This document shows, piece by piece, positions 1,324 through 48,400 of a stretch of DNA of 64,000 nt; the first letter of the stretch is position 1; every line of letters starts with the position of its first letter. The position numbers and the translations under genes are program-made. Below the pieces are notes generated by a model. It had not been told where the DNA came from. It saw only the letters and a list, made by a program, of their open reading frames with translations, and made no database searches. This DNA is from a virus (taxonomy: Duplodnaviria > Heunggongvirae > Uroviricota > Caudoviricetes): the IMG/VR virus record IMGVR_UViG_3300044675_001501, positions 1 through 64,000 of that record. The stretch is one strand, 5' to 3'.

Positions 1324-1848
1324 TTACAACCTTTCTGATAAATCATCTTTTTCCTTTTCTGTTAAAAGTTGTTTATCAGTTTTCTTCGCTTCACCTTTTT
1401 CTGCAATATCAATTTTCTGTGGCTTCTTATGCTCAGGAATAATACGCTCAAGAGCAATCTTCAACATACCATTAATTAATTCTGCACCTTTGATCTCTAC
1501 TTGATCATTCAGCGCAAAGGTATGTGTAAAGTTACGAGTAGCGATTCCCTTATGCAACCACTCTAGTGCTGTGTTATCTTCATTTGCCTTACCTTTAACA
1601 ATTAGTTTGTCATCAGCAAATTCGATTTCTAGTTCCTGTTTTGTGAAACCAGCAACAGCCATCTCAACAACATACTTATTTTCTGCTGTCTTCTTGATAT
1701 TGAATGGTGGATAGTTTGGAACATTTTTGGTCAGATCGTCATGCATTTTTGCTAGACGATTGAATTGATCATCGAAACCGACAAAGAACTTGTCGAAATC
1801 TTTGAACTGAGGGTGTAACATTGTATCTGGTAGCCATTTGTGTACCAT
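1324..1848 (-). CDS. hsp20: small heat-shock protein, Hsp20/alpha-crystallin family (IbpA-like)
   Basis: The alpha-crystallin domain pattern is present: PPFNI...YVVEMAVAGFTKQELEIEF.DDKLIVKGK...R.F...F.L...V.I.GA.L.NGML.I. AAGGAG lies 7 nt upstream of the ATG. Confidence 0.85.
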   Translation of the reverse strand: MVHKWLPDTMLHPQFKDFDKFFVGFDDQFNRLAKMHDDLTKNVPNYPPFNIKKTAENKYVVEMAVAGFTKQELEIEFADDKLIVKGKANEDNTALEWLHKGIATRNFTHTFALNDQVEIKGAELINGMLKIALERIIPEHKKPQKIDIAEKGEAKKTDKQLLTEKEKDDLSERL

Positions 1849-1870
1849 AATAGTCTCCTTATTAAGCGAG

Positions 1871-1898
1871 TTATAAAATTACTACCCCGAAGGCGTAG
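1871..1898 (-). terminator. UUCG-tetraloop hairpin followed by a U-rich tract (candidate partial terminator after pqqA)
   Basis: The minus strand reads CUAC-G-CC-UUCG-GG-G-GUAG followed by UAAUUUUAUAA. It lies between the pqqA stop and the hsp20 RBS. Confidence 0.45.
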
Positions 1899-1909
1899 CA
1901 GTTTAAATA

Positions 1910-1961
1910 GTCGGCTTTTAACGTAGTTACCGACCAACTACGTTCCCATCCCGATTGGGAT
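1910..1961 (-). other. structured RNA element downstream of pqqA: 5-bp hairpin, 9-bp hairpin and possible H-type pseudoknot
   Basis: On the minus strand, AUCCC-AAUC-GGGAU occupies 1948-1961 and AACGUAGUU-GGUCGGU-AACUACGUU occupies 1920-1944. Loop bases GUCGG are complementary to CCGAC (plus 1910-1914), which begins 5 nt 3' of the stem. Confidence 0.4.
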
Positions 1962-1970
1962 CAGATTTAT

Positions 1971-2042
1971 TTAGCGATTTGCGATATACATTGTAATCTC
2001 AAATCCAAAACGCATATCAGTAGCTACTGGTTTTGTCCACAT
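1971..2042 (-). CDS. pqqA: PqqA-like peptide (pyrroloquinoline quinone precursor), 23 aa
   Basis: The minus strand has AAGGAG, a 7-nt spacer (ATAATT A..), then ATG TGG ACA AAA CCA and onward, giving [23 protein letters not shown] followed by TAA. It has the M-W-x-K-P leader and the E-x-x-x-Y core (E15, Y19) typical of PqqA, and the length is typical (22-24 aa). It is too short to appear in the ORF track. Confidence 0.8.
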
Positions 2043-2060
2043 AATTATCTCCTTGGTTAA

Positions 2061-2106
2061 TTGTCCGAACTGGACAATAATACTTATCCCTACTGTGGCG
2101 ATAAGT
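2061..2106 (-). other. two hairpins in the regA-pqqA spacer
   Basis: The inverted repeats are TTGTCC/GGACAA (2061-2077) and ACTTATC/GATAAGT (2082-2106). Both lie upstream of the pqqA RBS on the minus strand. Confidence 0.4.
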
Positions 2107-2140
2107 CCCTAAGGATTTTCATTAAAAACTCATAAATTAT

Positions 2141-2557
2141 TTAGCGTTTTTTTCCGATATTATACTTAGGAACTAATTCCCATTCATCTTTTTCTTTATG
2201 CGTAACTACTTTAATCTGCGACAAAGATGCTTTCGGCTCTGACTTAGATGGTAGCATAATCTTTAACAAACCCCAATCTTGCAAAAGACCAGCAATAGTA
2301 TTGCGTCTCTCAACATCATTGGATGTAATGTTAGATTCTTTACCGTCTAGAGCGAACAGCTCTTTAAAGTGCACAATAAAGTACCTGCCCTGCTTATGTA
2401 AGATATGGCAAGACTGGTATAATTTTTTATCTTTACGGGAAGCGATACCAATACGAGTTAGAGTCTCTCTAACCTTCAGGAAATTGTCTGGTTCTGGTAG
2501 GGTCACTTCTAGCATGGACTCTGGAGTCCAATCGTAATAAACCATTTCAACACTCAT
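2141..2557 (-). CDS. regA: RegA translational repressor of early genes
   Basis: Strong resemblance to T4 RegA: PE(D/P)(F/N)FLKV(K/R)ETLTR(M/I)GIA..KDK.LYQSCHIL.K.G.Y.IVHFKE...DG, with a C-terminal E.W.LVPKY.IG. It sits in the canonical position after gp62. Confidence 0.9.
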   Translation of the reverse strand: MSVEMVYYDWTPESMLEVTLPEPDNFLKVRETLTRIGIASRKDKKLYQSCHILHKQGRYFIVHFKELFALDGKESNITSNDVERRNTIAGLLQDWGLLKIMLPSKSEPKASLSQIKVVTHKEKDEWELVPKYNIGKKR

Positions 2558-6038: not shown

Positions 6039-6215
6039 TTAAAATAAAACAACAATACCAACCATAACAATTACAACCAAAGCAGAAATACCAAGAGAGT
6101 ATGCTGTAATTTTAGCAAGACTCAATTTTTCTTTGTTAGTCATTTTTCTAAACATGTCTATGCCAGTAAAGAAAATAATAAACAAAGAGATGAAAGCGAG
6201 AACTATCTTAATCAT
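6039..6215 (-). CDS. small two-TM membrane protein, translationally coupled upstream of the SPFH gene
   Basis: Not in the ORF track (58 aa). The product is MIKIVLAFISLFIIFFTGIDMFRKMTNKEKLSLAKITAYSLGISALVVIVMVGIVVLF. Its ATG overlaps the stop of ORF 6212-6550 (ATGA), and it ends 12 nt before the SPFH start. Confidence 0.6.
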   Translation of the reverse strand: MIKIVLAFISLFIIFFTGIDMFRKMTNKEKLSLAKITAYSLGISALVVIVMVGIVVLF

Positions 6216-6550
6216 TTTTCTTCCTTAGAATATTTTACATCATGCTCATATAGAAAGTAAAGGCAGCACATTGCATGCGCCAAATGATGAATACCAGATT
6301 CAGGATCTAATTGTTCACCTTCTTTCCACGCCCATAGATGTCTTTGCATAGCATCAAAGTATCTACGCTTAGAATCGGGAACAAATTTCCAGTTGTCTGG
6401 TTCATATTTTTCTGCTCCGAATGTAAGGACTTTAACCATTTCTTTCAGAGCGAGTGGTGGGACTAGCCCATATTGAAGTTTGCCACCATCAAACTTTCTA
6501 CCGCCAGTGGTAGAATTCTGAGATTGTTCAATTTCTTTTTTAGTTGCCAT
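6212..6550 (-). CDS. dATP/dGTP pyrophosphohydrolase-like protein (MazZ/DUF5664-type all-alpha NTP-PPase)
   Basis: Motif string: FD.GK..Y.L.P..AL..(V)..VL.FGA.KY...NW......R.Y..A..RH......GE..D.ESG..HL.H. Recognised from memory of the phage dNTP pyrophosphohydrolase N-terminal domain. Confidence 0.55.
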   Translation of the reverse strand: MATKKEIEQSQNSTTGGRKFDGGKLQYGLVPPLALKEMVKVLTFGAEKYEPDNWKFVPDSKRRYFDAMQRHLWAWKEGEQLDPESGIHHLAHAMCCLYFLYEHDVKYSKEEK

Positions 6551-30557: not shown

Positions 30558-33500
30558 TTATGCTTGTGATTCAGTCCAAGACAGACGGCAAGAAGCAGCG
30601 AACGTAGCAGCAGCAGTAACGTCAGAAGCTAGACCAATGTATCTCATACGTAGAGTCAATACGTCTGGACCGTCAGGGAATACACCGTTACCGCCCATAA
30701 TAGAGTTACCAAGAGTTGCAATTTCACGTAGGTCAATAGAGGTCAATGCTTGAGCTCTGTTGTTTGGTGTTGTCAACTGGTTTCCAGGTGGAACACGGAA
30801 CGAGAAGATAACAGAACCTTGGTCAATTGTGTCAGAAATGTTATGGTAAACAACCTGACTCAATGAAGGAGCAGTAACACGCTTCCAATCCAAGTTATCC
30901 AAGTCAGCATTCAGAACCAGAGACAATTCAATCTCGTGGGTTGAAAGAACGTCAAGAGCTTTCAAGTTCAATTGCATGCGGTTAATAATTTCTCTTTCTC
31001 CAAGTAATCCTGGAATACCATTATCAACAGAAGGCGATAGACGTAAAGACAATAGAGGAATTGTTTTAGTCAAATCAACAGCCTGTGAAACTGTATATGT
31101 AGTATTTGTCGCTTGGATAGAAGAAGGTCTTGCGTTAACAACCAATAAGTTTTTAAGAATATTAGATGTTGGAGAAACTCTGACCTGACGCAAATATGGT
31201 TGACTACCGATAGATGAGTTGGTTGGGTTTGCAGTTAATGTACCAGCAACAATACCATTTCCTGATATACCAGAATTAGCATTAATAGAAAAATATGTAT
31301 CTGCATGAGTAGGAATTTCAATAGCAAAACCAATTTCACCAATCAGCTTACCGCCATTGTTATAAGCATACCATTTTCCTAGTTCGAATGCGTTACCAGC
31401 TGTAACTCCACCAGCTGCGGCAAGACTTGGTGCTACTGCGGTACAAACAAAACTTGTTCCAACGTTGTTGTTTGCTGCTCCATATGAAGTCCAAGTTGTT
31501 GATCCTGCCGTATTAATTGTATAAGAACGACCGATAACTAAATTGTTTGCTGTAAAGGTTTGAGATACTGATGCTTGTGTTCCACCAGTAACGCTAATTG
31601 TGCCAGAAGTACCAGTAGAAGTACGAATCTGGTTAGAAGTAGCGGAGAACAAGTATGCTTTATCGTCATCGAAACCACCGTCCATAATAACGGAAGTACC
31701 CCAGTGTGCAAGTTTAGGTATAAAGGAAGGAGAAACGCCAGTATCAACCTCATAGCGAGCTGGCAGGTTACCCGAACGTAGGTACGCTTCTGTTTCTAAG
31801 TTGTTGTGGACAATTTGGTGTACGTATCTAACAACACCATCAGTAGTTTTAAATCCAAAACGAACTTTACCAGCGCCATACCAAGAATAGTCCATGTAAG
31901 CCATCTGAATCTTACGAATATCTAAAGTATATCCTGTTGGACCACTTCCATTACATACATCTAAATTCCAGCTTGATTGTGGAACTCTAATCTCATTAGT
32001 CTTACTTACTACAACATTAGTTGATGTAGAACCTCTATATGATGGTTGAACATAGAACGTATTGTTGTTTGGAATTTCAATAACTTTATATGATTGTCCT
32101 TTAATTACAACATAATCTCCAGAGACTAATTCTGTTACGTATTGTGTTCCTGTTCCTACAATTTGATTGCTGTTAAAAATAACACTTGCAGTTCCACCTA
32201 GCTGAACTGTAGAATTTCTTCTGCATACGCTAAGAGTCGAACCATTATATTCAAAGAACATACCATTTTGATCATCAAATAAACCACAACGAACTGTTGC
32301 GTTATTCCAAGAATTTACGTAGAATTGTGGGCGACCGCTGGAAACGTTGCTATATGGGAAATTCAAACTAATTCTAAATGAATAATCATCTATAATGTCA
32401 TAAATTGTGAACGATCCATTATAGGTAGATCCAGTATCCCCAGAAATAGTAATGTCTAGACCAGCAGTACATCTGTGAGGAACACGAGTAGTTACTGTTG
32501 CATAGTAGTTACTATTACCTGTAACTGAGTTAATAGGTACTGAAGGGCTGAAGTTAATAGCAAACGAAACTTGAATGCCTTTACCTGACTGATAACGGAA
32601 ATACTTACGAGTCTGACGAACAACACGTGCGTTCGGAGAATCTGTTGAGATTAATTCAACACCACCGTCATATGGTCTATGTAACGCTGATGAGTCAGCA
32701 CGCAACAATAGACTAGAAGTAACATCATAGGTGTTTGTTGCTGGGAATCCGTGACAGTTTATTGCGTTTACAGTAGAAGCTGTTGTTGTTGCTGGGATAG
32801 TTGCAGTCGCAGCAGCATTAGTTTGCATAGTAACAACAATAGAAGTGCTATTGCTACCAGCATTAGTTTTGACAATTAATGGAATATTGTCAATCTGAGT
32901 TGTATTACCAGTTCCTGTTAAAACAATGACAGAGCCAGCAGGGAATGGGCAAGGCATTGGGAAAGCGACAGTAATATCTGGGCTGGCGCTTGTTAGTGAT
33001 ATAGAAGTTACTGGCAATTTATATTGTTCATTAATTGGGATAGTATCAACTAAGTTTAACACAGTGCGTGAGTTGACTGTGCTAATTAGAGAAACACCAG
33101 TATTTCCAGGAACAATTAAAGAAACAGTGTGAACACCTGAACCACCAGAAGCAACGATCAAGTTAGTCCCATTTACTGCATCATTATAGGTAGGAGCTAA
33201 GTTGAAGTCGGCAGCTGACGCCCATCTTACATAGTAGATACCACCGTTAATTAGACCAGTTGGTGCAGCAACAGTAGAGTTCCAGCGTACAGACATGCCT
33301 GTCAACATACCGTGCGCAGCACTAGTAAATGTTGAAGAAACGAAAGTTGTTGTTTTTGCAGTGTAAACTGCTGGGTAATTCCAATAGAAGTTATCGCCAG
33401 ATTTAAACGCAGTTGAGAAGTTTGTGTTATTACCAACTACCTTAGTTGTTCCTGCTGCTAGTGCAATAGTACCAGCACCAACAATAGAACCAACAACAGA

Positions 33501-36500
33501 AGCTGCTTCAAATTGATGCGTTCCAGAACCCAAGAAGTTTCCGCTGTTTAAGTTAATTGGAACAACAATAGGATTAACAGCATCTGCTACTGTCGCAGCA
33601 AGTCTGAACCAATCTTCTGTTATTTTAATAATGTAGTATGTTGTATTACTAATTAATGGACCGAATGGTGTTCCTGATGCTGTATATAATACAGGAGTTC
33701 CTGTAATCAATTTGTGTCCGACGCTATAAATCGCATTCCAGTTAAAGTCGACATTAATCTGAGGATTAATACCTAGAACACGTTTAGGAACAACAGCATT
33801 GTTAGGATTATTAAGGGTAAATTTATTTGTTGCGCCACCAGGAGCATTATTTGCGACAGTATACAACCCATCAATGGCTCCAGTAGTAACCCCAGTAGTC
33901 ATTGTGTGGGATGCGCCAGTTCCTTCTGCTGTTATATCAACAACAGTTGATTGACGTAAAGAACCAGTTCCAGAAGGAGTTCCAACAAACTTCACACGAT
34001 CATCTGCGGTATTGTTAATCGCACCAAGTTGAGTCCAGTACAATGTACATGTCGTAGTAGAATCTGCACGAACGTAGTAGAACGCACCATTGGTTAGTCC
34101 TGTAGCTGGTGTTGCTGACAAATATTGAACTAGACGACCAGTAGTAAACCCATGAGTTCCAGTTGTAATAACACCAGTCGCAGTCGCTAAGTTGGTAGTA
34201 TTCTGCGTAAATGAAATCGCAGCAGTATCCCAACCTGTTAACGTATCAGCTAACTGGAATCTATCGGTAGTAGAATTGAAAACGAATTTAGTTGATCCGC
34301 TTGTTAGTCCTCCAACTTCAGAGCCACCACCTGTTGCGTATGTTACAGAGGTTCCATTGTTTAATCCATGATTTTGTTTATAGATGGTGTCGCCAGCGGT
34401 ATTCGATGCTCTTCTTGTGAAGTAATGATTATTTCCAACAAAAGATAGTTTTGCGCCGAGGAAATAAATTCTACCAACATCTGTGCCATTATTATATGCA
34501 GCAAAAGCAGAAGTGTTTAGAGGCTCAGTAGCTTCAGCATCTTTGTAAATTTCTAGTGTTGTAGATGTTGCTGATTTAGCATAATATATCTTATGATCCC
34601 ATAGAGCATACCAAGGAGAAGCTGGTGCAGCAAAACCTTGGAAGTGAATAGGAACAACTGCGCCAACAGGGACGCTGTGCGCTGCAGTCGTAGCAACCGC
34701 AGTAGAGTTACTGGTGAATGCAGTAATCGCAAGGATCTGAGGGTTCAATGCTGGAATTAGCTGAGAAGCAGTACCGTTTGTTGACACTGCTCCATTGGTT
34801 CCACTATTAGCATATGTGAACGTATTAAATGTAGCTTGTAAAATTACTGCAGTTGCATTGTTAAAGGTTGTGTCAGTAACAGAAGCAATAGCAACTTGTG
34901 TTCCAATTTTGAAACCATGAGGAACAGCAGTAGTAACTGTAGCTACGTTATTATCTCTACGAATAGAAGCAATATTTACGCTGTTCGATGGGAATGTATA
35001 TGTTATTGAATTTGTCTCACCAACAGTAATCGCTGTAATAGATCCTCGTTTTAGTGTAGTAGAAGGAATCTTTGTGATTTCAAAGTAATCAGTAATTTGT
35101 GAGCCAACAAGAGGGAAATATGAGTTATCTTTAGGGTGAGCCCAAACACTCTGCAACCAGCTTGTTCCAATAGCAAGGTTATCTTCATCGCGAACTCCAT
35201 GTCCTGTATCAATAACAACCTTCGCAGTAGATATTGTAGAGAATGTTCCTGGAAGACCTCCTGGAGTCATAACATAAACAATAACACTTAGTGCTGGCGC
35301 AGTTCCTGATACGGCTCCAACTCTAATATCATAAGCATTGAAACGAGAATCTCCGATATATGTTAACTCCGCAGTGCCATCAGAAACCGCACCACTTGTG
35401 TGAGAAGGCGCTGATGTGCTGGTTGTTCCAGCAACAGAAACATTGTATAAATTATTATTCCAGAAAACTTTTTGGTTTAGTGTTAACGCAGTATTTGGAC
35501 CCCATGGTGTACCCATTTTTAGTGGTTGGTTATTTGCGTCAAAGAACTTGATTAAACCGCCATGGTGTGCAACGTTGGCTAAAGCGCTACCTCCTGCGAT
35601 ACGTGCTGCTGAAGTAAACGTGAATGTATTAGCACCAGCAGTAATAGTTGGAACTACAATGTTTGCTGTAGTTGACCATGCAGAAGATGGATACGAAATC
35701 GTCATCGATGTTCCACCAGAAGCCACAGCTGCAGTTTTCCAATTCCAATATGCGGTGTCAAATGTTGTGTTAACATTTGTTAGTGTCTTATCTGCAAATG
35801 CGTTAGCTGTATCTAAATGCGCACCAGCAGCGCTTGTTACTGCCAGAGCAGATCCAGCATCAGAAAGAAGTTTAAATCTATCTGTGGTTGCAGAGTCAAC
35901 AATAAAGTATGATCTATTTGTTAAACCAGTAGGAACAGAAGCTGCGGCTTGGGTTCCACCTGATGCCTCCCAGAAAACCAATTCTCCGTTTTGGAATCCG
36001 TGAGACTTAGAATACCAAGATCTACCAGTAGACCATGGTTGTGTATAGTTAATAGGAACAACATATCCATCAACAGAAGTGCCACTAAGAGTTAAATTAG
36101 ATCCACTAACAGTTGTTGACAAATTGAATGTTAGAATATCTGAACTTGCTGAACCATAGAGATCAAAACCAACATTATTGGTTTGAACTGCAAGAGAATT
36201 GTTTAATGGATTTTTAAGTTTAATTGTTAAAGTTCTAGTTGTTGTTCCTGTGTGGTTGGTTATCATACCAACTGGATTTACTGTAGAACCTGGGAATTCA
36301 CCAAAAGGGCTAACCTCATATGATTGATACAATCCAGTATTATTTCTTAAAACAATCTGGTGTCCTTTCGGAGTATTTCTTAGAGGAGTTCCTGTGAACA
36401 GTGCGCCAGCGTTTGATGCGGTAGCAAGAGTGAATGTTGCACCACCTTGCGTAGAGCTTAAAGTGATATCTGCGCTACTTTCGATAGTTTTAACATAATA

Positions 36501-39500
36501 CGTTGTGCCAGAAACAATATTACCGAAAGATGCACCTACAGTGAATGGTTGATTAACTGCAAGACCTTGAGTTGTATGTAGCGTTAGTCTATTAGTTCCA
36601 GCTGTGGTGTTTGTTGCAATAGTTGTTACGTTTGTAGCGCCAAGGAATCCTGACATGACGTCAGTCTTAACTACTGGTAATGGTCCATACGAATAGCAAG
36701 AAACACGCTGAGCTGAAGTAGTAGATAGAGTTGCTAAAGCCCCACCACGAGTAGTAGAAACTGTAAGTGTTGTTCCAGAAAGAACGCTTACAATGTAATA
36801 AAGTTGTCCAGAAGATAATCCACCAACGCTGGCATCAACTTCAAACATCTGACCAGCTTTCATACCAGTAGTGCTTGACACAGTAATTACGTTCGTTGTT
36901 ACAGCAGTGCCAGTAATTGTAGTAAATGCACCCTCATCAAAAGTTAATGATAATGTTGCAGCGTCTTGAGCCGCAAGAGCGATGGTGCCGATTGCGCCAT
37001 CAAGTTCTCCATTCGGACCACTATAACTAGAAAAATTTGCATTACCTGGAGCACTGTTAGATCCATTGGTTGCGCCGAAGGGTAAGGTTACTTGTGATTG
37101 GTGCGTGTCAGAATTTGGATTTCTGGCATACACAATGTTTGGCAATTGAGCTGGTGTCCAGTTATTAGTGAATGCTGTAGTTCCACCAATAGCAGTAGTC
37201 CATACAGCTAAAGGTTGGTTATCTAAAATCGCAGAATTGAGAGTATCTAAACACTGGACAAACATTGTTCCAGAAGCTGTTTGATAGTCATGAACTCTAG
37301 CTGCAGCCATAAAGGAATGTGGACCAAATCTATCTGTAGCAAGAGGGAATCTAGATGCAGCTGCTTGTACACCGAAGTTAACTGAAAGAGCAGTTCTTCT
37401 GTTTGCTTGTGTAACTAATACGCACTGTGTTGTCGAATCTGTAATAATAGTGCCGATTTGAGCAGTAAACGAAGCAGCAGTAGCAGTACCCATTGCTACT
37501 GGATTTGTAAACTGTTTAGGTGTAGCACTAGAATCGTTTACATCAGTAGTTGGTGTATCAGAAATTGTAATCTGAGTGCCAGACAAAACGTCTTTGACGT
37601 AGTATGTAGTATTTCCAAGAATACCAGCAAGGCTACCGTTAGCAGTACCAGTACCAGATGCTGCTCCATTAGTTGCGGCAGTGAATGTTGAACCAACAGC
37701 ATAAGTTACGCCAGATGTTCCAGCAATAGTATTCCACTGAGGTTGTGTAGTTGTTCCAAGAGCAGCAATAGTGTATTGCTGTCCTACAGTAAAATGACCT
37801 GCAGATACTGTTGGACCTTGAATGTGAGTGCTTAGATATGGGGTTACTGCAGTTCCTGGCACGAAACGAATTGCCATACCTGGAGTCATGTTTGCAGTAG
37901 CTGCTACAGTAACAATATTTCTCTCAGCGTTTAGGGAGTTACCGCTGATCACTGGAATGTTCAAGTAGCGATTAATTGTATAAGTACCAGCTGCTCCTGT
38001 ACCAGTGCCTCTTGCAGTAATGTAAGTTCCTGCTGGTACATGTCCATTAGTATCTGACAGATATGCTCCAAGGTCGAATGCAGTACCTGTTACAGTAGCG
38101 TTAACTGTCAATACGTTTCCTGAAATAGAGAACGAGGTTGTGCTACCTGTTTGGTTTAATGTTGCAGTGCCTGTTGTTGTGTTACCGTTATAGAATCCAG
38201 GTTTAGTTCTTACATAATAAACTGTAGGCGCAGTAATTTGCGATCCACCAATAGTAAGACCGCCATTTAGAGCACCCATGTTGTATAGGTATGGTCTATT
38301 ATCGATAAGACCATGAGAAGAAGCGAAAGTAATTACATTGGCTCTCGTTGAAGCGATGTAGTTTGTATCGTTTACACCTTTATGCTCAAGTAGATCTGCT
38401 GCGTTTTTACCCAATGTGAAAAATAAAGTTGGGCGAGATGCTCCAGCTGGGTTGAAGTTATACTTCTCAGCTGTCCATGTATATGGGTTAAATTTAGATG
38501 TGTTGTCTAGATCTAAAGAGTTTTCTGAGTAGCCGTTAGAAGATGATACGGTTTCGTTAGAAGAAGTTGTTCTGATAAACAACTGTCTCTTCCAGCTCTG
38601 CTGTGGATCTAAGAATACATCACCAGTGAATGTTGCATTAACAGCTTCGTTGTTTGGACCTCTAATACTAAAAGTTAAACTAGATAGAGAATAATTTACT
38701 AAATCTGCTTTTATTAATCTAGCATCAATTGTATCGTTTTCGCAGTCAAATGTTACTTCCCAGATTATTGTAGTATTAGTTGATCCGTCTTGAAACTCTT
38801 TACCTTCCCATCTAATTCTAAGGCTGGTAGTTGTTGTTGAAAAATAAAGTTTCTTAAGATTAAAGTCCCCAGTTAAGAAGTTAATCTTTGGAGAATATGT
38901 ATTGTTATTATCAACGCCATTCCAAGCAGCAACATCAACAGCAGGACCATTACCAATTACGCTTGTGCTATTTGTAAAGTGAATAGTCGAATTAGATGTT
39001 ACCCAAACACGGTCAAAGGTTTGGTCGAAAATTTTAAACGGCATTGATTCTGGGAATAGTACTCTGTAAACACCCTCATCAATACCAACGTTTGATGTTG
39101 TTGCATCACCATCAATAATTAATGTCATACCCAGAGTTCCTGGGTCTGTAATGCCAGAAGTTCCAAAGGTTACGTATGCTTTGTCTGTATAACCATTGTT
39201 ATCAGTAACTACAGCATCATCTGTTCTTAGTATTGCTTGGTTTTCAGTGTAAATTAAAGAAGTAACTAATGTTGAATCGAATGTAATCTGCTGCGATGTT
39301 AGGCTGTTTAGAAGAATAAATGTAGTGCCAATAGCAAATCCATGTGGACCATTGGTTGTAATTGTAATAGTAGATGGGCTTTCTCCATCTGTTGCGATCG
39401 CGCCAAGAGATTCTAACTTAAATTCAGTTCCTTGGTATAATGATGCAAGATAAATTTCTGTAGAGCTTTCTCTTACAGAACCTGTAATTGGTGATGTTCT

Positions 39501-39899
39501 TCTTGCTCTGTATGTAAACGATGTTGATGATGGAGTTGTTAAAACAACGTATGTACCGTCAGCAAACTGTAGATTAGCACCTTTAACAATAATTGAGTTA
39601 CCAACAACAAGACCATGATCCTCAGAAGTGGTAACTGTGATCGTGTTGCTTCCTGAGATTGCAGTCATTGTTAAAATGCTTAAACTCAAAGAACCATCTC
39701 GAGCAAAGAAAGTAGGAATATTATTGATGAGCTCTAAAGTTTCCCACTTTGAAGATTGCAAACCGTATTCGAAGTCAGTATCAATTAAGTTAGATGGCTC
39801 AGAGACACGCATCTTAGACACTGGGTCATAGATGGTCTCATTAGGTTCAATATAAACTGAACCAGCGATTCTGTTTGCTTTTAATACGTCAAGAGACAT
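30558..39899 (-). CDS. giant virion structural protein, paralog A (3113 aa; baseplate/tail-fibre associated)
   Basis: An uninterrupted 9.3-kb ORF. It has at least 10 HG(F/L)xxGxx(V/I) ... YYV ... F.LA modules. Its N-terminal motif (DPVSKMRVSEPSNLIDTDFEYGLQSSKWE) and its C-terminal 709 aa are homologous to ORF 45419-55813. Confidence 0.8.
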   Translation of the reverse strand: MSLDVLKANRIAGSVYIEPNETIYDPVSKMRVSEPSNLIDTDFEYGLQSSKWETLELINNIPTFFARDGSLSLSILTMTAISGSNTITVTTSEDHGLVVGNSIIVKGANLQFADGTYVVLTTPSSTSFTYRARRTSPITGSVRESSTEIYLASLYQGTEFKLESLGAIATDGESPSTITITTNGPHGFAIGTTFILLNSLTSQQITFDSTLVTSLIYTENQAILRTDDAVVTDNNGYTDKAYVTFGTSGITDPGTLGMTLIIDGDATTSNVGIDEGVYRVLFPESMPFKIFDQTFDRVWVTSNSTIHFTNSTSVIGNGPAVDVAAWNGVDNNNTYSPKINFLTGDFNLKKLYFSTTTTSLRIRWEGKEFQDGSTNTTIIWEVTFDCENDTIDARLIKADLVNYSLSSLTFSIRGPNNEAVNATFTGDVFLDPQQSWKRQLFIRTTSSNETVSSSNGYSENSLDLDNTSKFNPYTWTAEKYNFNPAGASRPTLFFTLGKNAADLLEHKGVNDTNYIASTRANVITFASSHGLIDNRPYLYNMGALNGGLTIGGSQITAPTVYYVRTKPGFYNGNTTTGTATLNQTGSTTSFSISGNVLTVNATVTGTAFDLGAYLSDTNGHVPAGTYITARGTGTGAAGTYTINRYLNIPVISGNSLNAERNIVTVAATANMTPGMAIRFVPGTAVTPYLSTHIQGPTVSAGHFTVGQQYTIAALGTTTQPQWNTIAGTSGVTYAVGSTFTAATNGAASGTGTANGSLAGILGNTTYYVKDVLSGTQITISDTPTTDVNDSSATPKQFTNPVAMGTATAASFTAQIGTIITDSTTQCVLVTQANRRTALSVNFGVQAAASRFPLATDRFGPHSFMAAARVHDYQTASGTMFVQCLDTLNSAILDNQPLAVWTTAIGGTTAFTNNWTPAQLPNIVYARNPNSDTHQSQVTLPFGATNGSNSAPGNANFSSYSGPNGELDGAIGTIALAAQDAATLSLTFDEGAFTTITGTAVTTNVITVSSTTGMKAGQMFEVDASVGGLSSGQLYYIVSVLSGTTLTVSTTRGGALATLSTTSAQRVSCYSYGPLPVVKTDVMSGFLGATNVTTIATNTTAGTNRLTLHTTQGLAVNQPFTVGASFGNIVSGTTYYVKTIESSADITLSSTQGGATFTLATASNAGALFTGTPLRNTPKGHQIVLRNNTGLYQSYEVSPFGEFPGSTVNPVGMITNHTGTTTRTLTIKLKNPLNNSLAVQTNNVGFDLYGSASSDILTFNLSTTVSGSNLTLSGTSVDGYVVPINYTQPWSTGRSWYSKSHGFQNGELVFWEASGGTQAAASVPTGLTNRSYFIVDSATTDRFKLLSDAGSALAVTSAAGAHLDTANAFADKTLTNVNTTFDTAYWNWKTAAVASGGTSMTISYPSSAWSTTANIVVPTITAGANTFTFTSAARIAGGSALANVAHHGGLIKFFDANNQPLKMGTPWGPNTALTLNQKVFWNNNLYNVSVAGTTSTSAPSHTSGAVSDGTAELTYIGDSRFNAYDIRVGAVSGTAPALSVIVYVMTPGGLPGTFSTISTAKVVIDTGHGVRDEDNLAIGTSWLQSVWAHPKDNSYFPLVGSQITDYFEITKIPSTTLKRGSITAITVGETNSITYTFPSNSVNIASIRRDNNVATVTTAVPHGFKIGTQVAIASVTDTTFNNATAVILQATFNTFTYANSGTNGAVSTNGTASQLIPALNPQILAITAFTSNSTAVATTAAHSVPVGAVVPIHFQGFAAPASPWYALWDHKIYYAKSATSTTLEIYKDAEATEPLNTSAFAAYNNGTDVGRIYFLGAKLSFVGNNHYFTRRASNTAGDTIYKQNHGLNNGTSVTYATGGGSEVGGLTSGSTKFVFNSTTDRFQLADTLTGWDTAAISFTQNTTNLATATGVITTGTHGFTTGRLVQYLSATPATGLTNGAFYYVRADSTTTCTLYWTQLGAINNTADDRVKFVGTPSGTGSLRQSTVVDITAEGTGASHTMTTGVTTGAIDGLYTVANNAPGGATNKFTLNNPNNAVVPKRVLGINPQINVDFNWNAIYSVGHKLITGTPVLYTASGTPFGPLISNTTYYIIKITEDWFRLAATVADAVNPIVVPINLNSGNFLGSGTHQFEAASVVGSIVGAGTIALAAGTTKVVGNNTNFSTAFKSGDNFYWNYPAVYTAKTTTFVSSTFTSAAHGMLTGMSVRWNSTVAAPTGLINGGIYYVRWASAADFNLAPTYNDAVNGTNLIVASGGSGVHTVSLIVPGNTGVSLISTVNSRTVLNLVDTIPINEQYKLPVTSISLTSASPDITVAFPMPCPFPAGSVIVLTGTGNTTQIDNIPLIVKTNAGSNSTSIVVTMQTNAAATATIPATTTASTVNAINCHGFPATNTYDVTSSLLLRADSSALHRPYDGGVELISTDSPNARVVRQTRKYFRYQSGKGIQVSFAINFSPSVPINSVTGNSNYYATVTTRVPHRCTAGLDITISGDTGSTYNGSFTIYDIIDDYSFRISLNFPYSNVSSGRPQFYVNSWNNATVRCGLFDDQNGMFFEYNGSTLSVCRRNSTVQLGGTASVIFNSNQIVGTGTQYVTELVSGDYVVIKGQSYKVIEIPNNNTFYVQPSYRGSTSTNVVVSKTNEIRVPQSSWNLDVCNGSGPTGYTLDIRKIQMAYMDYSWYGAGKVRFGFKTTDGVVRYVHQIVHNNLETEAYLRSGNLPARYEVDTGVSPSFIPKLAHWGTSVIMDGGFDDDKAYLFSATSNQIRTSTGTSGTISVTGGTQASVSQTFTANNLVIGRSYTINTAGSTTWTSYGAANNNVGTSFVCTAVAPSLAAAGGVTAGNAFELGKWYAYNNGGKLIGEIGFAIEIPTHADTYFSINANSGISGNGIVAGTLTANPTNSSIGSQPYLRQVRVSPTSNILKNLLVVNARPSSIQATNTTYTVSQAVDLTKTIPLLSLRLSPSVDNGIPGLLGEREIINRMQLNLKALDVLSTHEIELSLVLNADLDNLDWKRVTAPSLSQVVYHNISDTIDQGSVIFSFRVPPGNQLTTPNNRAQALTSIDLREIATLGNSIMGGNGVFPDGPDVLTLRMRYIGLASDVTAAATFAASCRLSWTESQA

Positions 39900-45418: not shown

Positions 45419-48400
45419 TTATGCCTGTGATTCTGACCAAGTAATACGAGCGGATGCTTGGAACGGAGCAGAACCATTGATAGTTGATGTATCAATTGGT
45501 GTCGCTGTAATAGTCAAGATATCTGGACCGTTAGGGAATGTTTCGTCACCGCCCAAGATCGAGTTACCTAGCTGAGCAACTTCACCAAGCTCTGCTGTTG
45601 TCTGAACTAAACTACGCTGACCAGTTGTTGCGCTAATAATAGAACCACCAGAAGCACGGAACGAGAATAACTGAATACCGTTCTTAATGGTTTCTCCTGG
45701 TGAATGTCTATAGATTTGCGACAATGAAGGAGCAGTATTATTAACGAAGTTACTGTCTGACAAATCAGAGTTCAAGAATAGTTTAATCTCAGATTCATGT
45801 GTCAATAGAACACCGCAAGAGTTTAGAGTCAGTTGCATTCTGTTAATGACATCTCGGAAACCAAGACCTCCAGTTAATCCGTTATCTACAGAAGGGGCAA
45901 GACGGATAGAAACTAGAGGAACTGGAGCAAGAGCAGAAATTGACTGATTACTTGTTCCACCACCAACAATAAAGTTTTGACCACTAGCGCCAACTCCAGT
46001 GATATTGTTTCTAAATCTTTGTGTTAATATGACTCTACTATTTGTGGTTCCTGCAACAATAGAAACAGATTTAACTAAAGTGTTTGCTGGTAAATAGAAG
46101 TTATTAAAATCATTCTGAACAGAAACACTAGAACCAACAATAAACTTAGATGAGTTAGCGTTAGTTACAAGGATAAAATCGTCTCCTCTGTTGATATTAG
46201 TGCTTGCTAATGATGCAACAATCTGAGTACCACCATTCGTTAGCGTAATAACATTAGAGTCAGCAGTAAACAAGTATGCTTTATCGTCATCGAAACGACC
46301 ATCCATAATAACAGAAGTACCCCAGTGGAATAGTTGTGGAGAGAATGTTGGTTCGCCGAATGTTACAACTTCGTAACGTGCTGGGATATTACCAGAACGC
46401 ATATATGCTTCAACGAATTCATTGTTGTGGATAAACTCATGGAAGTAGCGAACTTCACCACGCTGGTCTTTAACACCAAAGCGAATCTTACCAGCACCAT
46501 ACCAAGAGTAGTCAATGTATACCATCTGAATCTTATTAAGGTCTAGGACATAACCGCTTCTTCCGTTTCCGTCTGCCTTATCAAGAGTCCATTGATTTTG
46601 CGGTACTTTTGTATCAATTGTTTTGGTTCCAATAATGTTGGTTAGAGTTGATCCGCGATATTCTGGTTGAATATACATTTGAGTATCACTATCAATTCCA
46701 ATAATTTTGTAAGACATACCACGAATAACAACATATTCTCCAACACTTAGTTGCGTTGTAAATTTAGTTTTTTCTCCAGTGATCAAAGAAGAACGATATG
46801 TTGCATTAATTCTTCCAGAAATCTGCTGGATAGAACTTCTTCTAACGCAATATAACTGCTGTCCATCATACTCAAAGAACATACCGTTTTGAGTGTCAAA
46901 TAAACCACAGCGAACCGCAGCGTCTTTCCAAGAAACTAAGTTAAACTTAGGGAATCCATAAGCAACCGAAGATCCATTCTGTCTGTAGATAGGTAGTCTA
47001 ATTTGTTTTATTACAGTTCCAGAATTCTCTGTTATGTTTACACCCGCTTGAGTATAAGTGAATGTTGTTGAATCAACAACTGTTACTGGAGCAGAGAATC
47101 CATTGAAGTTTGCGCCAACACCAGTGCCAGAGATAGAGATATAATTTCCTGTTACAAGACCGTGACTTGATGAAGTAACAACTGTTACAGTGTCATTTAA
47201 TCTTGAGATAGAAGAAATTCCAACTGTTGGTGAACTTCCTACAACAGTGTTAGACAATGTCAAAACTTTAGTATTTGTATTTACATCAGTAATGATTGTG
47301 TTTGCTGGAATTGTTATACCGCCATATGTTCCTGCTTTTATTGTTTTTCCAACTGCAACACCATTCAAATTCCAAACTGAACCGATAGTATTAGTTCCAT
47401 TTGTCACTGTTCCAAATAATGGTGTGTCTTCATAAACATATGTAAAGGTATACTCGTCAACAACTTCTAAAATATCAAATTGACCATTATAACCATTATG
47501 CCCAGAAGCAACTGTTGCTTCTGAAACTCTTATTCTATTAGTTGTTCCTGGTTTAAATCCATGAGGCGAGTCAACCTTAATCTTAGCAATATTCTCATTA
47601 GATGTAAGCTCTTCGCAATCTGTTGGTGGGTTAAAGTTAATAGCAATAGAAACTTGAATACCCTTACCAGATTGATAGCGGAAATACTTACGAGTCTGAC
47701 GAACTACGCTAGAGTCAGGAACTAGACCAGTAGTCATAGTAACTCCACCATCGAATGGACGATGAGCAGTAGTAGCATTAGACTTAACGTAAATGTTAGT
47801 GTTAATAAAGTATTCAAAAACTGGTTGAATAGAAATTGCATTACCAGCAGCAAAACTTGAATTTAAGTATTCACTAATTGTCAATATGTTACCATTAATT
47901 GCAGTAATTCTGGTATTTGCTTTAAATCTTCCGTTACTATCGAATAGGTAGTAACCAACAGCTAAATCAGCAGCATTGTTTACTGTTATAGTTTGAGATC
48001 CAGTTGTTACTGCTGCGCCAGCTGATACTGTTCTATCAATAATCAAATTAACCTTAACAATTGCGTCAGGAGTAATAGGAGATCTCAACTTAATTGAAGT
48101 ATCAGACTTAACAGAAGAAATGATATAGTTAAAGATTTTACCTGGATTAGCTGCAGTATAGAAACGTAGAACGTCACCACCCTTAAAGTTTGTTAAGAAC
48201 TTAGTTCCGATACCTGTAATAATGTCAGATTCTTCAGTAACAACTACTGTACCCAATCCTCTAGTTAAACCAACAATAGAGTAAGTATCAAAGCTCTGAG
48301 ATCCATTAGTTCCAGCAGTCAAATCGATTGTTGTTGGAGTTGGAGAAACAGCCTCATCGAATGTTGGCGCCAACTTAACAAAGTTAGGGTCAACAACAAC

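What the first reader, a model, noticed from the sequence alone, without database searches (positions are those of the whole stretch)
1971..2042. Unannotated 23-codon ORF encoding a textbook PqqA (PQQ precursor peptide) in a lytic T4-like phage
The ORF is below the ORF-track cutoff. On the minus strand it reads AAGGAG, a 7-nt spacer, then ATG, and translates to [23 protein letters not shown] followed by a stop.

The peptide has every PqqA hallmark. It is 23 aa long. It has the M-W-x-K-P leader that PqqD recognises. It has the E-x-x-x-Y core (E15 and Y19), whose Glu and Tyr are cross-linked by the radical-SAM enzyme PqqE to build pyrroloquinoline quinone. From memory it is about 16/23 identical to Pseudomonas-type PqqA ([23 protein letters not shown]).

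No pqqB, pqqC, pqqD or pqqE is present in these 64 kb, so the phage carries only the ribosomal precursor. There are two readings. One is an auxiliary metabolic gene that feeds the host PqqBCDE machinery, keeping PQQ-dependent periplasmic dehydrogenases (XoxF/MxaF methanol, alcohol or glucose dehydrogenases) supplied during infection. The other is a decoy substrate that titrates host PqqD/PqqE.

I am not aware of a described phage-borne pqqA, but I cannot search to confirm novelty.
Basis: partly seen in the sequence, partly recalled or inferred. Interest (0 to 1): 0.9.

Follow-up and report, generated by a model that had tools for sequence, protein, structure and literature searches.

The report
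Phage copy of PQQ precursor gene
A T4-like phage carries a real, strongly conserved 23-codon gene for PqqA, the small peptide bacteria use up to make the cofactor PQQ; a phage pqqA was already reported in 2020, but it is far commoner in phages, and far less often annotated, than the literature suggests.

Summary
Window 1971-2042 (-) encodes [23 protein letters not shown] behind a strong Shine-Dalgarno site. It scores 38 bits on both PqqA models, about twice their cut-offs. The window is a T4-like myovirus with no pqqB-E.

The ORF is a real gene:
- In the same phage clade it lies in the regA-hsp20 spacer in 14 of 80 related loci, always intact.
- dN/dS is about 0.08. The CDS is 78% identical between copies; its flanks are 36% and 22%.
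- In an unbiased leader-anchored scan of viral contigs, 118 of 118 copies keep Glu15-x3-Tyr19 and the stop codon.

The novelty claim fails. Coutinho et al. 2020 described PqqA in a T4-like Lake Baikal virus of Methylophilaceae.

I found more than that paper reports. Solitary pqqA is present but unannotated in every cultured Methylophilales phage lineage. It is also on several hundred viral contigs, never next to pqqB-E.

Best explanation (inferred, untested): the phage supplies the one stoichiometrically consumed component of PQQ synthesis. The host's catalytic PqqBCDE can then keep PQQ-dependent dehydrogenases supplied during infection. A decoy role is unlikely because several phage copies are identical to host PqqA.

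Verdict: new member of a known kind, moderate interest.

The parts
1971..2042 (-). pqqA: 23-codon ORF plus stop, [23 protein letters not shown]. Glu15 and Tyr19 are the residues that become PQQ.
   Evidence: sequence. (PF08042 37.9 bits, TIGR02107 38.5 bits). (synonymous-codon variation, dN/dS about 0.08). (118 of 118 viral copies keep E-x3-Y and the stop).
2049..2054 (-). Shine-Dalgarno AAGGAG, 6 nt upstream of the ATG.
   Evidence: An AGGAG-type SD is present in all T4-like copies and in 228 of 235 viral copies.
2061..2077 (-). 5'-leader hairpin TTGTCC-AGTTC-GGACAA between the GATAAGTA box and the SD.
   Evidence: present in MFE and centroid folds. The stem changes in a compensatory way between copies: GTCC/GGAC, CTACC/GGTAG, GTAG/CTAC (sequences). 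Not tested formally.
2081..2088 (-). GATAAGTA box, 38-45 nt upstream of the ATG. It differs by one base from the T4-type late box (T)ATAAATA and is conserved as nnTAAGTA in many T4-like pqqA cassettes, including Melnitz. In the window it is also the 3' arm of a hairpin (ACTTATC 2106-2100 / GATAAGT 2088-2082).
   Evidence: conservation. (not enriched in the window: 10 versus 15 expected). (ATAAATA boxes sit at the same distance upstream of other ORFs). (hairpin). Its function as a promoter is unproven.
2043..2140 (-). 98-nt regA-pqqA spacer. It holds the box, two hairpins and the SD. The predicted fold pairs CCUUAGG with the SD region.
   Evidence: MFE -23.8 kcal/mol, z = -1.76, a weak result. 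(no sigma-70-type promoter found here).
2141..2557 (-). regA (translational repressor), the upstream neighbour and anchor of the insertion site.
   Evidence: PF01818, 160.6 bits. (synteny in relatives).
1324..1848 (-). hsp20 (small heat-shock protein), the downstream neighbour.
   Evidence: PF00011, 63.3 bits. (same order regA-pqqA-hsp20 on five metagenome contigs).
1849..1970 (-). Separate conserved structured RNA, not part of pqqA. A CTAAATA box (1968-1974) overlaps the pqqA stop. Elements: H1 1948-1961; H2 1921-1943, whose loop pairs with 1910-1914 to form a pseudoknot; H3 1882-1898 followed by a T-run; then AACTCGCTTAA-AAGGAG and hsp20.
   Evidence: present in about 27 related loci with or without pqqA. 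(z = -3.13). (pseudoknot complementarity 64 versus shuffle mean 41 and maximum 53, 0 of 2000 shuffles reach it; 12 distinct helices). (no Rfam family).

Best explanation
What is shown:
- The ORF is a functional phage copy of pqqA, the ribosomal precursor of pyrroloquinoline quinone.
- It is a host-derived, solitary mini-gene with a strong ribosome-binding site, inserted in the variable regA-hsp20 spacer of a T4-like myovirus.
- It is kept under strong purifying selection.

Proposed mechanism (inferred, not shown):
- In PQQ biosynthesis PqqA is the only component consumed one-for-one; its Glu15 and Tyr19 become the cofactor. PqqB, C, D, E and the protease act catalytically.
- During infection host transcription and host DNA are lost, so the short-lived precursor should be the first component to run out.
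- The phage-made peptide would be bound by host PqqD, cross-linked by host PqqE and matured by host PqqB/C and protease. PQQ would keep being made for periplasmic PQQ-dependent dehydrogenases (XoxF/MxaF methanol dehydrogenase in methylotrophs), sustaining energy supply until lysis.
- The host is most likely a PQQ-producing betaproteobacterial methylotroph of the Methylophilaceae kind. Host identity is not settled for this phage's '...IANR' variant.
For: Identity: both PqqA HMMs are passed at about twice their cut-offs.

Real gene under selection:
- The regA-pqqA-hsp20 locus is identical on five independent metagenome contigs.
- 14 of 80 related T4-like loci carry it in the regA-downstream spacer. 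All copies are intact and there are no decayed remnants.
- The invariant residues W2, T3, P5, R11, G13, F14, E15, T17 and Y19 are written with 2-4 synonymous codons.
- NG86 gives pS 0.69, pN 0.13 and dN/dS about 0.08. CDS identity is 0.78, against 0.36 and 0.22 for the flanks.
- In a scan anchored only on the leader half, 118 of 118 distinct viral copies keep E15-x3-Y19 and the stop after residue 23.

It is substrate, not mimic: phage copies such as L042 and MW202481 are identical to the commonest Methylophilaceae PqqA, [23 protein letters not shown].

Recurrent, independent acquisition:
- Solitary pqqA is in all cultured Methylophilales phage lineages: Melnitz (myovirus), Venkman, MEP301, MEP401/402 and P19250A.
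None has pqqB-E in its flanks.

Host logic:
- Methylophilaceae carry 3-12 pqqA copies but one pqqBCDEFG set (PMC4109929). In my genome sample only 16 of 120 pqqA loci have pqqB nearby.
- Ca. Methylopumilus universalis has pqqA next to pqqBCDE.

Feasibility of precursor feeding:
- Purified PqqA is converted to PQQ by cell extract at 70-80%, and solitary pqqA copies are among the most expressed (PMC9851590).
- pqqA overexpression alone raises PQQ in G. oxydans (PMC7936290 citing Wang 2016).

Precedent: a Baikal T4-like virus carries PqqA together with methanol dehydrogenase (PMC7678222).
Against: - There is no expression, translation or biochemical data for any phage PqqA.
- Why new PQQ would be needed within one infection cycle is an assumption. 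PQQ is a stable, reusable cofactor.
- Host identity is unresolved. The window's variant (D9, I16...IANR) was not among the 141 Methylophilaceae copies sampled. In metagenomes the same C-terminal half lies next to pqqB only in high-GC (51-70%) bacteria.
- No methanol dehydrogenase gene is in these 64 kb, though the rest of the genome was not seen.
- The promoter is unassigned: no sigma-70-type promoter and no canonical terminator around the ORF.
Confidence: 0.65

Rival explanations
1. Decoy or takeover peptide. The phage floods the cell with a PqqA look-alike that ties up PqqD/PqqE (or drains SAM), or has some other PQQ-independent role, so PQQ synthesis is blocked or redirected rather than sustained.
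For: - The phage carries only the peptide and none of the enzymes.
- The leader that PqqD recognises is conserved.
- The window's variant differs from the sampled Methylophilaceae PqqA at 5-6 positions.
- The host of the '...IANR' type is unknown.
Against: - Several phage copies are identical to host PqqA, so they are ordinary substrate.
- A blocker would be expected to alter the reactive Glu or Tyr, yet both are invariant in 118 of 118 unbiased copies.
- The residues after Tyr19 are also conserved, with only I/V, A/M/C and R/K exchanges.
- Host genomes themselves multiply solitary pqqA copies to raise supply.
- A radical-SAM gene is near pqqA in only 5 of 437 loci.
Confidence: 0.07
2. The product is PQQ, but the purpose is not methanol or alcohol oxidation for energy. 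For example, PQQ-glucose-dehydrogenase-driven phosphate solubilisation as part of a phosphate-acquisition AMG set, or lysogenic conversion in temperate carriers.
For: - In 11-13 viral loci pqqA lies beside pstS and a phosphate-selective porin.
- pqq genes are counted as P-solubilisation AMGs in PMC13188868.
- In MW202481 pqqA has its own sigma-70-like promoter and hairpin, and lies near a cro-like gene.
Against: - In this window there is no pstS or porin next to pqqA, and the phage is T4-like, so not temperate.
- All cultured carriers infect obligate methylotrophs.
- AMGs often cluster in variable regions without a functional link.
Confidence: 0.15
3. Neutral passenger. A recently captured host fragment with no role in infection, or a chance ORF.
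For: - Presence is patchy: 14 of 80 related loci.
- It lies in a fast-evolving spacer.
Against: - dN/dS is about 0.08 with saturated synonymous change.
- There are no degraded copies.
- The SD is conserved in 228 of 235 copies.
- It was acquired independently in myo-, sipho- and podovirus lineages.
- The HMM E-value is about 1e-9.
Confidence: 0.03
4. Recombination or integration target. The phage carries pqqA because multi-copy host pqqA genes serve as attachment or homologous-recombination sites.
For: - Hosts have many solitary copies.
- In small methylophages pqqA lies near recombinase genes.
- In Melnitz it abuts a tRNA gene.
Against: - T4-like phages do not integrate.
- Nucleotide-level divergence is high (pS 0.69) while the peptide is conserved, which is the opposite of what a DNA-level target needs.
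- No integrase is adjacent in the loci inspected.
Confidence: 0.02

Closest known systems
Bacterial PqqA (TIGR02107 / PF08042), especially the solitary extra copies of Methylophilaceae
   Same: - 23 aa, a W-x-x-P leader, and an R-F-G-F-E-x-T-M-Y core with the Glu and Tyr that form PQQ.
- 17-19 of 23 residues identical to Methylophilaceae copies.
- Like most Methylophilaceae copies, it is unlinked to pqqB-E.
   Different: - It is encoded by a lytic-type T4-like phage.
- It carries D9, I16 and the tail IANR. These were not seen in the 141 sampled Methylophilaceae copies but are common in high-GC betaproteobacteria-like contigs and in many low-GC viral contigs.
PqqA of Lake Baikal viral population VP_266 (Coutinho et al. 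2020, PMC7678222)
   Same: T4-like virus, low GC (about 35% versus 38% here), solitary PqqA, and interpreted as an AMG supporting methanol dehydrogenase.
   Different: - That virus also encodes methanol dehydrogenase; none is in this 64-kb window.
- The sequences could not be compared, because the contig was not available to me.
Unannotated pqqA ORFs of cultured methylophages (Melnitz, Venkman, MEP301, MEP401/402, P19250A) and MW202481
   Same: - 70-77% identical 23-24-aa ORFs, all solitary.
- Melnitz shares the TATAAGTA box upstream.
   Different: - They sit in different genome positions and in different phage families.
- They are the '...VMNK'-like type rather than '...IANR'.
- In MW202481 and P19250A the ORF looks like a stand-alone unit with a terminator, and in MW202481 also a sigma-70-like promoter.
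- They are not annotated, or an antisense ORF is annotated instead.
Cyanophage psbA (D1 protein), a functional analogy only
   Same: The phage supplies the rapidly consumed component of a host energy-harvesting system while relying on the host for everything else.
   Different: - The protein and pathway are unrelated.
- D1 is a structural subunit, whereas PqqA is a substrate destroyed to make a cofactor.
- psbA function is shown experimentally; phage pqqA function is not.

Membership tests
PqqA (PQQ precursor peptide; TIGR02107 / PF08042) | Score above the curated cut-off of the family HMMs | tested here: met
   PF08042: 37.9 bits versus 21.1. TIGR02107 (equivalog): 38.5 bits versus 20. Both are full-length matches.
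PqqA (PQQ precursor peptide; TIGR02107 / PF08042) | Short peptide (about 20-40 aa) with the E-x-x-x-Y motif whose Glu and Tyr are cross-linked | tested here: met
   23 aa with E15 and Y19. Both residues are invariant in 118 of 118 leader-anchored viral copies.
PqqA (PQQ precursor peptide; TIGR02107 / PF08042) | N-terminal leader of the type bound by PqqD (W-x-x-P...) | tested here: inconclusive
   The W2-T-K-P5 motif is present and conserved. Binding itself cannot be tested here.
PqqA (PQQ precursor peptide; TIGR02107 / PF08042) | Genomic linkage to pqqBCDE | tested here: not met
   There is no PqqB-E homologue in the 64-kb window. This feature is not strict for the family: 104 of 120 sampled Methylophilaceae pqqA loci also lack pqqB nearby, and these genomes hold 3-12 copies per single operon (PMC4109929).
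PqqA (PQQ precursor peptide; TIGR02107 / PF08042) | Cross-linked by PqqE/PqqD and converted to PQQ | not testable with these tools
   This needs in-vitro PqqD/PqqE assays or complementation of a pqqA-null strain.
Phage auxiliary metabolic gene (host-derived metabolic gene kept by a virus) | Lies inside a bona fide viral genome, not in a bacterial flank | tested here: met
   It is flanked on both sides by T4-like core genes on the same strand. The same holds for relatives. None of 240 viral loci has pqqB-E nearby. Only 4 large ORFs from the bacterial pqqA loci have homologues in the viral loci.
Phage auxiliary metabolic gene (host-derived metabolic gene kept by a virus) | Close cellular homologue in the host lineage | tested here: inconclusive
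   For relatives of this phage the peptide is identical to Methylophilaceae PqqA. For the window's own variant the bacterial source lineage was not pinned down.
Phage auxiliary metabolic gene (host-derived metabolic gene kept by a virus) | Maintained by purifying selection within phages | tested here: met
   dN/dS is about 0.08. The CDS is far more conserved than its flanks, and there are no pseudogenes.
Phage auxiliary metabolic gene (host-derived metabolic gene kept by a virus) | Expressed during infection and alters host metabolism | not testable with these tools
   This needs RNA-seq or Ribo-seq and PQQ quantification in infected cells.
T4-like (Kyanoviridae-like) myovirus | T4 core replication and virion gene set | tested here: met
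   RegA, gp62, gp44, gp45, gp46/47-like, helicase, UvsY, gp23, gp22, gp20, gp18 and gp17 homologues are present. The best capsid matches are HTVC008M, Melnitz and cyanomyoviruses at about 61%.
Moron (autonomous promoter-gene-terminator insert) | Own promoter and terminator flanking the gene | tested here: inconclusive
   Window: no sigma-70-type promoter and no canonical terminator on the coding strand, only a conserved GATAAGTA box and hairpins. MW202481: a TTGACT-16-TACTAT promoter-like site and a 12-bp hairpin flank pqqA. P19250A: a terminator follows it.

The most novel reading that the evidence does not exclude
The '...IANR'-type solitary pqqA copies include the window's own copy and those on 136-367-kb low-GC viral contigs of unknown host. 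They may reside in phages whose hosts are not methylotrophs, or do not make PQQ at all. The peptide would then have a PQQ-independent role: for example, titrating PqqD/PqqE-like RiPP machinery, or being processed into another product. It would not simply top up the host's precursor pool.
Probability: 0.07. Interest if true: 0.85.

Novelty: new member of a known kind. Interest (0 to 1): 0.45.

Why it matters
The gene is an unusually clean example of a phage carrying only the consumable part of a cofactor pathway. At 23 codons it is among the smallest auxiliary metabolic genes.

It falls below normal ORF cut-offs, so it is missing from the GenBank annotation of every cultured methylophage I checked. 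In Melnitz and MW202481 an antisense ORF is annotated in its place.

My scans suggest it is common: several hundred viral contigs, all intact and all solitary.

If the precursor-supply idea is right:
- Phages of abundant marine (OM43) and freshwater (LD28-like) methylotrophs would actively maintain methanol oxidation in infected cells, which matters for C1 carbon flux.
- pqqA could serve as a simple marker for predicting PQQ-dependent hosts.

The idea is directly testable, because several carrier phages and their hosts are in culture.

Tried and rejected
Calls that failed or were wasted:
- Megablast of the first 8 kb against the phage collection found no match.
I used back-translated IUPAC patterns instead.
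- One viral scan was wasted on a miscounted run of N and returned 0 hits.
- Script errors occurred. My early regexes missed W-T-T-P and W-T-S-P leaders; this was corrected.

Records excluded: 'Acinetobacter phage MD-2021a' hits were rejected as phage evidence. The record is bacterial chromosome with fur, ppk and pqqBCDE.

RNA and regulatory checks:
- Rfam found no family at gathering threshold in the window. In 1700-2300 it found only sub-threshold SAM-II, ROSE_3 and IRES noise.
- ATAAGTA is not a general promoter motif of this phage: 10 sites versus 15 expected.
- No sigma-70 promoter or canonical terminator lies around pqqA.

Host of the '...IANR' type remained unresolved:
- Intermediate-GC solo loci turned out phage-like or ambiguous rather than clearly bacterial.
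- Literature searches for the peptide strings and for the sample accessions returned nothing.

Phage-side processing was rejected: a radical-SAM gene is near pqqA in only 5 of 437 loci.

I looked for methanol dehydrogenase or other methylotrophy genes shared between the Methylophilaceae loci and the viral pqqA loci. Only AhpF-like, SHMT, SoxYZ and sigma-70 homologues were shared.

Full report
**1. The observation**

On the minus strand, window 2042-1971 reads ATG...TAA and translates to [23 protein letters not shown]. AAGGAG lies at 2054-2049 and is separated from the ATG by ATAATT, which is 6 nt and not the 7 nt stated.

The peptide matches Pfam PF08042 (37.9 bits, gathering 21.1, E 1.6e-9) and NCBIfam TIGR02107 (38.5 bits, cut-off 20, E 7e-10). 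Both matches run over the full models. That is far beyond chance for a 23-residue ORF.

**2. The setting**

All large ORFs are on the minus strand and form a T4-like gene set.
- Immediately around pqqA are RegA, the gp62/gp44 clamp loader, the gp45 clamp and Hsp20.
- Further along are a CobS/MoxR-like ATPase, gp46/47-like nuclease, helicase, UvsY, major head, scaffold, portal, sheath and terminase.

The major capsid protein is about 61% identical to Pelagibacter phage HTVC008M, Methylophilales phage Melnitz and cyanomyoviruses. So this is a distinct member of the aquatic T4-like (Kyanoviridae-like) group. GC is about 38%.

tblastn with PqqB, C, D, E and the M19 dipeptidase finds nothing below E = 1 in the window. 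No radical-SAM or PQQ-enzyme domain appeared in the ORFs scanned. The phage, at least in these 64 kb, carries only the precursor.

**3. Is it a real gene?**

The identical regA-pqqA-hsp20 arrangement is on five independent metagenome contigs.

Among 80 IMG/VR loci holding a RegA relative, an nhmmer profile of the CDS finds 14 copies. All are intact and all lie in the spacer downstream of regA. The next best hit is noise (E 1.8). So there are no decayed remnants, and presence is all-or-none.

Across copies the residues W2, T3, P5, R11, G13, F14, E15, T17 and Y19 never change, yet each is written with two to four synonymous codons.

For 21 non-redundant copies of this clade:
- pS is 0.69 (saturated), pN is 0.13, and dN/dS is about 0.08.
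- The CDS is 78% identical at nucleotide level. The 96 nt upstream are 36% identical and the 130 nt downstream 22%.

My first viral scans required the Glu and Tyr codons, which biases the estimate. I therefore repeated the scan with the leader half only (M-W-T-K-P-x-A-T-[DE]-M-R-F-G-F). All 118 distinct copies retrieved continue with E-x3-Y and stop after residue 23.

**4. Prior knowledge**

- Coutinho et al. 2020 (PMC7678222) described PqqA, with methanol dehydrogenase, in T4-like, roughly 35% GC Lake Baikal viruses predicted to infect Methylophilaceae. They interpreted it as an AMG.
- A 2026 survey lists viral pqqA among phosphorus-cycling AMGs.
- I found no other description.

**5. How widespread it is**

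tblastn of the peptide against 50,697 phage records hits only two kinds of record:
- cultured Methylophilales/Methylophilaceae phages and one uncultured podovirus: Melnitz x4, Venkman, MEP301, MEP401/402, P19250A and MW202481;
- two 'Acinetobacter phage MD-2021a' contigs, which are in fact bacterial chromosome with pqqBCDE.

In the real phages the ORF is solitary. It is either unannotated or covered by an antisense 'hypothetical protein'. The isolate papers do not mention it.

For the 240 loci:
- None has pqqB-E in its flanks.
- Median GC is 37%.
- 78 distinct peptides occur.
- 228 of 235 copies have an SD.

There is never more than one copy per locus. Only four large ORFs from 120 Methylophilaceae pqqA loci have any homologue in the viral loci (AhpF-like, SHMT, SoxYZ, sigma-70). 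So pqqA moved alone, and the viral loci are not bacterial contamination.

**6. Source and host**

Almost all are Methylophilaceae: Methylophilus, Methylotenera, Methylopumilus, Methylovorus and OM43.

These loci hold 141 ORFs of only nine sequences, dominated by ...VMNK and ...VCNR. Several phage copies are identical to the commonest of these.

Only 16 of the 120 loci have pqqB nearby. That agrees with the published 3-12 pqqA copies per single pqqBCDEFG set in this family (PMC4109929). Ca. Methylopumilus universalis has pqqA next to pqqBCDE.

The window's own variant (D9, I16...IANR) was not among these. In metagenomes its C-terminal half occurs in three contexts:
- next to pqqB in high-GC (51-70%) bacterial contigs;
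- solo in many low-GC (33-47%) contigs, some of 136-145 kb or 297-367 kb, whose flanks are phage-like or orphan;
- in this T4-like clade.

Within the clade both peptide types occupy the same regA-hsp20 site. I conclude that the host is a PQQ-producing betaproteobacterium, most likely Methylophilaceae-like, but this is not settled.

**7. Mechanism**

Established biochemistry (named pathway knowledge): PqqD binds the PqqA leader and the radical-SAM enzyme PqqE cross-links Glu and Tyr. A protease, PqqB and PqqC then complete PQQ. One peptide is consumed per cofactor, while the enzymes turn over.

Literature support for precursor feeding:
- Purified PqqA is converted to PQQ by cell extract at 70-80%.
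- Solitary pqqA copies are among the most expressed in a methylotroph (PMC9851590).
- pqqA overexpression alone raises PQQ in G. oxydans (PMC7936290).

Inference: after T4-type host shut-off, the precursor is the first component to run out. A phage-encoded copy with a strong SD keeps PQQ synthesis going for periplasmic PQQ dehydrogenases.

The decoy alternative is disfavoured. Some phage peptides are identical to host PqqA, and the reactive residues are invariant.

In some other phage lineages pqqA sits beside pstS and a phosphate porin. A phosphate-related use of PQQ is therefore possible there.

**8. Expression signals**

The 98-nt regA-pqqA spacer contains three elements:
- a GATAAGTA box at -45 to -38;
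- a hairpin whose stem changes compensatorily between copies;
- the SD.

The box is one base off the ATAAATA late-type box, which in this phage sits 24-73 nt upstream of eight other ORFs.

No sigma-70-type promoter or canonical terminator was found, so the timing of expression is open. In MW202481 and P19250A the gene looks like a stand-alone unit.

**9. Verdict**

This is a genuine, selected, solitary phage pqqA. It is a new member of a kind first reported in 2020.

The added value here is threefold: formal evidence of selection, the finding that all cultured methylophages carry it unannotated, and its high frequency in viral contigs. Its function remains inferred.

Noticed in passing
window 1849-1970 (-); also L007, L008, L011, L014-L018, L022, L024, L029, L035, L036, L039-L041, L043, L047, L048, L061 and others: A conserved structured RNA lies between pqqA and hsp20. 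The order is: CTAAATA box; hairpin ATCCC..GGGAT; GGGAA(C); a second hairpin whose loop pairs with a stretch after an A-rich linker (an H-type pseudoknot); a GC hairpin with a T-run; then AACTCGCTTAA-AGGAG and the next gene. It occurs in relatives with or without pqqA. Pseudoknot complementarity is 64 against a shuffle maximum of 53 (0 of 2000 shuffles reach it), with 12 different helix sequences. There is no Rfam match. It may be an undescribed leader, riboswitch-like element or small RNA of aquatic T4-like phages.
   Followed up: partly
window 1843-1902 (-): There is a sub-threshold match to the ROSE_3 RNA thermometer (16 bits versus 43 gathering, E about 1). It covers the last hairpin and the SD just upstream of the phage hsp20. 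This is suggestive given the gene it precedes, but far below threshold.
   Followed up: no
L001 (Melnitz MZ577097.1 76100-76195), L091 (MW202481.1 2067-2195): The GenBank annotation places a 'hypothetical protein' on the strand opposite the pqqA ORF (MelnitzEXVC044M_152, UOF77531.1). In Venkman, MEP301, MEP402 and P19250A nothing is annotated there. The pqqA gene is missed in all of them.
   Followed up: yes
L092 (CAKLQF020000010.1) and CAKLQH020000055.1: Records named 'Acinetobacter phage MD-2021a' are bacterial chromosome: entB, fur, ppk and pqqBCDE. They are mislabelled entries in the phage collection.
   Followed up: yes
L238, L246, L304, L310, L476, L530, L534, L542, L550 and others: In about 11-13 viral or metagenome loci the solitary pqqA lies next to pstS and a phosphate-selective porin (Porin_O_P). 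This could link phage PQQ supply to phosphate acquisition, or it may simply be an AMG island.
   Followed up: partly
L311 7003-8457; also L454, L456, L471, L488: A B12-binding radical-SAM protein lies about 1.3 kb from a solo pqqA in L311. Homologues are in only 5 of 437 loci, so there is no consistent association. An AAA (MoxR-like) plus DUF2201 pair recurs near pqqA in 8-9 loci.
   Followed up: partly
IMG/VR loci L333-L572; L088 (P19250A), L089 (MEP301): Many phage copies have Thr or Ser instead of Lys at position 4 (W-T-T-P, W-T-S-P). [23 protein letters not shown] is the commonest viral peptide in one scan. My bacterial scan forced Lys at that position, so I could not tell whether this is a phage-specific change in the PqqD-binding leader.
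   Followed up: no
window 30558-39899 (-) and 45419-55813 (-): Two giant ORFs of 3113 and 3464 aa lie in the virion-gene region with no significant Pfam domain; there is one sub-threshold E1_FCCH hit. ORFs of 1183 and 1045 aa also have no hits. They are presumably fibre or baseplate proteins.
   Followed up: no
window 6212-6550 (-): This ORF carries the N-terminal domain of dATP/dGTP diphosphohydrolase (PF18909, 119.7 bits). From memory, this is the MazZ-type enzyme linked to diaminopurine genomes. I did not look for PurZ or DatZ.
   Followed up: no
L109 (CAJWVO010000013.1, 'uncultured Nitrosomonadales' MAG) and L361: L109 is a 33.5% GC contig binned in a bacterial MAG. It carries pqqA and a SoxYZ fusion whose only homologue in my data is on a 72-kb viral contig (L361). 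The MAG contig may be viral.
   Followed up: no
window 2043-2140 (-): In the predicted fold of the pqqA leader, CCUUAGG pairs with the SD region and encloses two hairpins. Anti-SD-like stretches (such as TTCTCC in L032 and TCTCTTA in L034/L392) occur in other copies. This hints at translational control, but the z-score is only -1.76.
   Followed up: no
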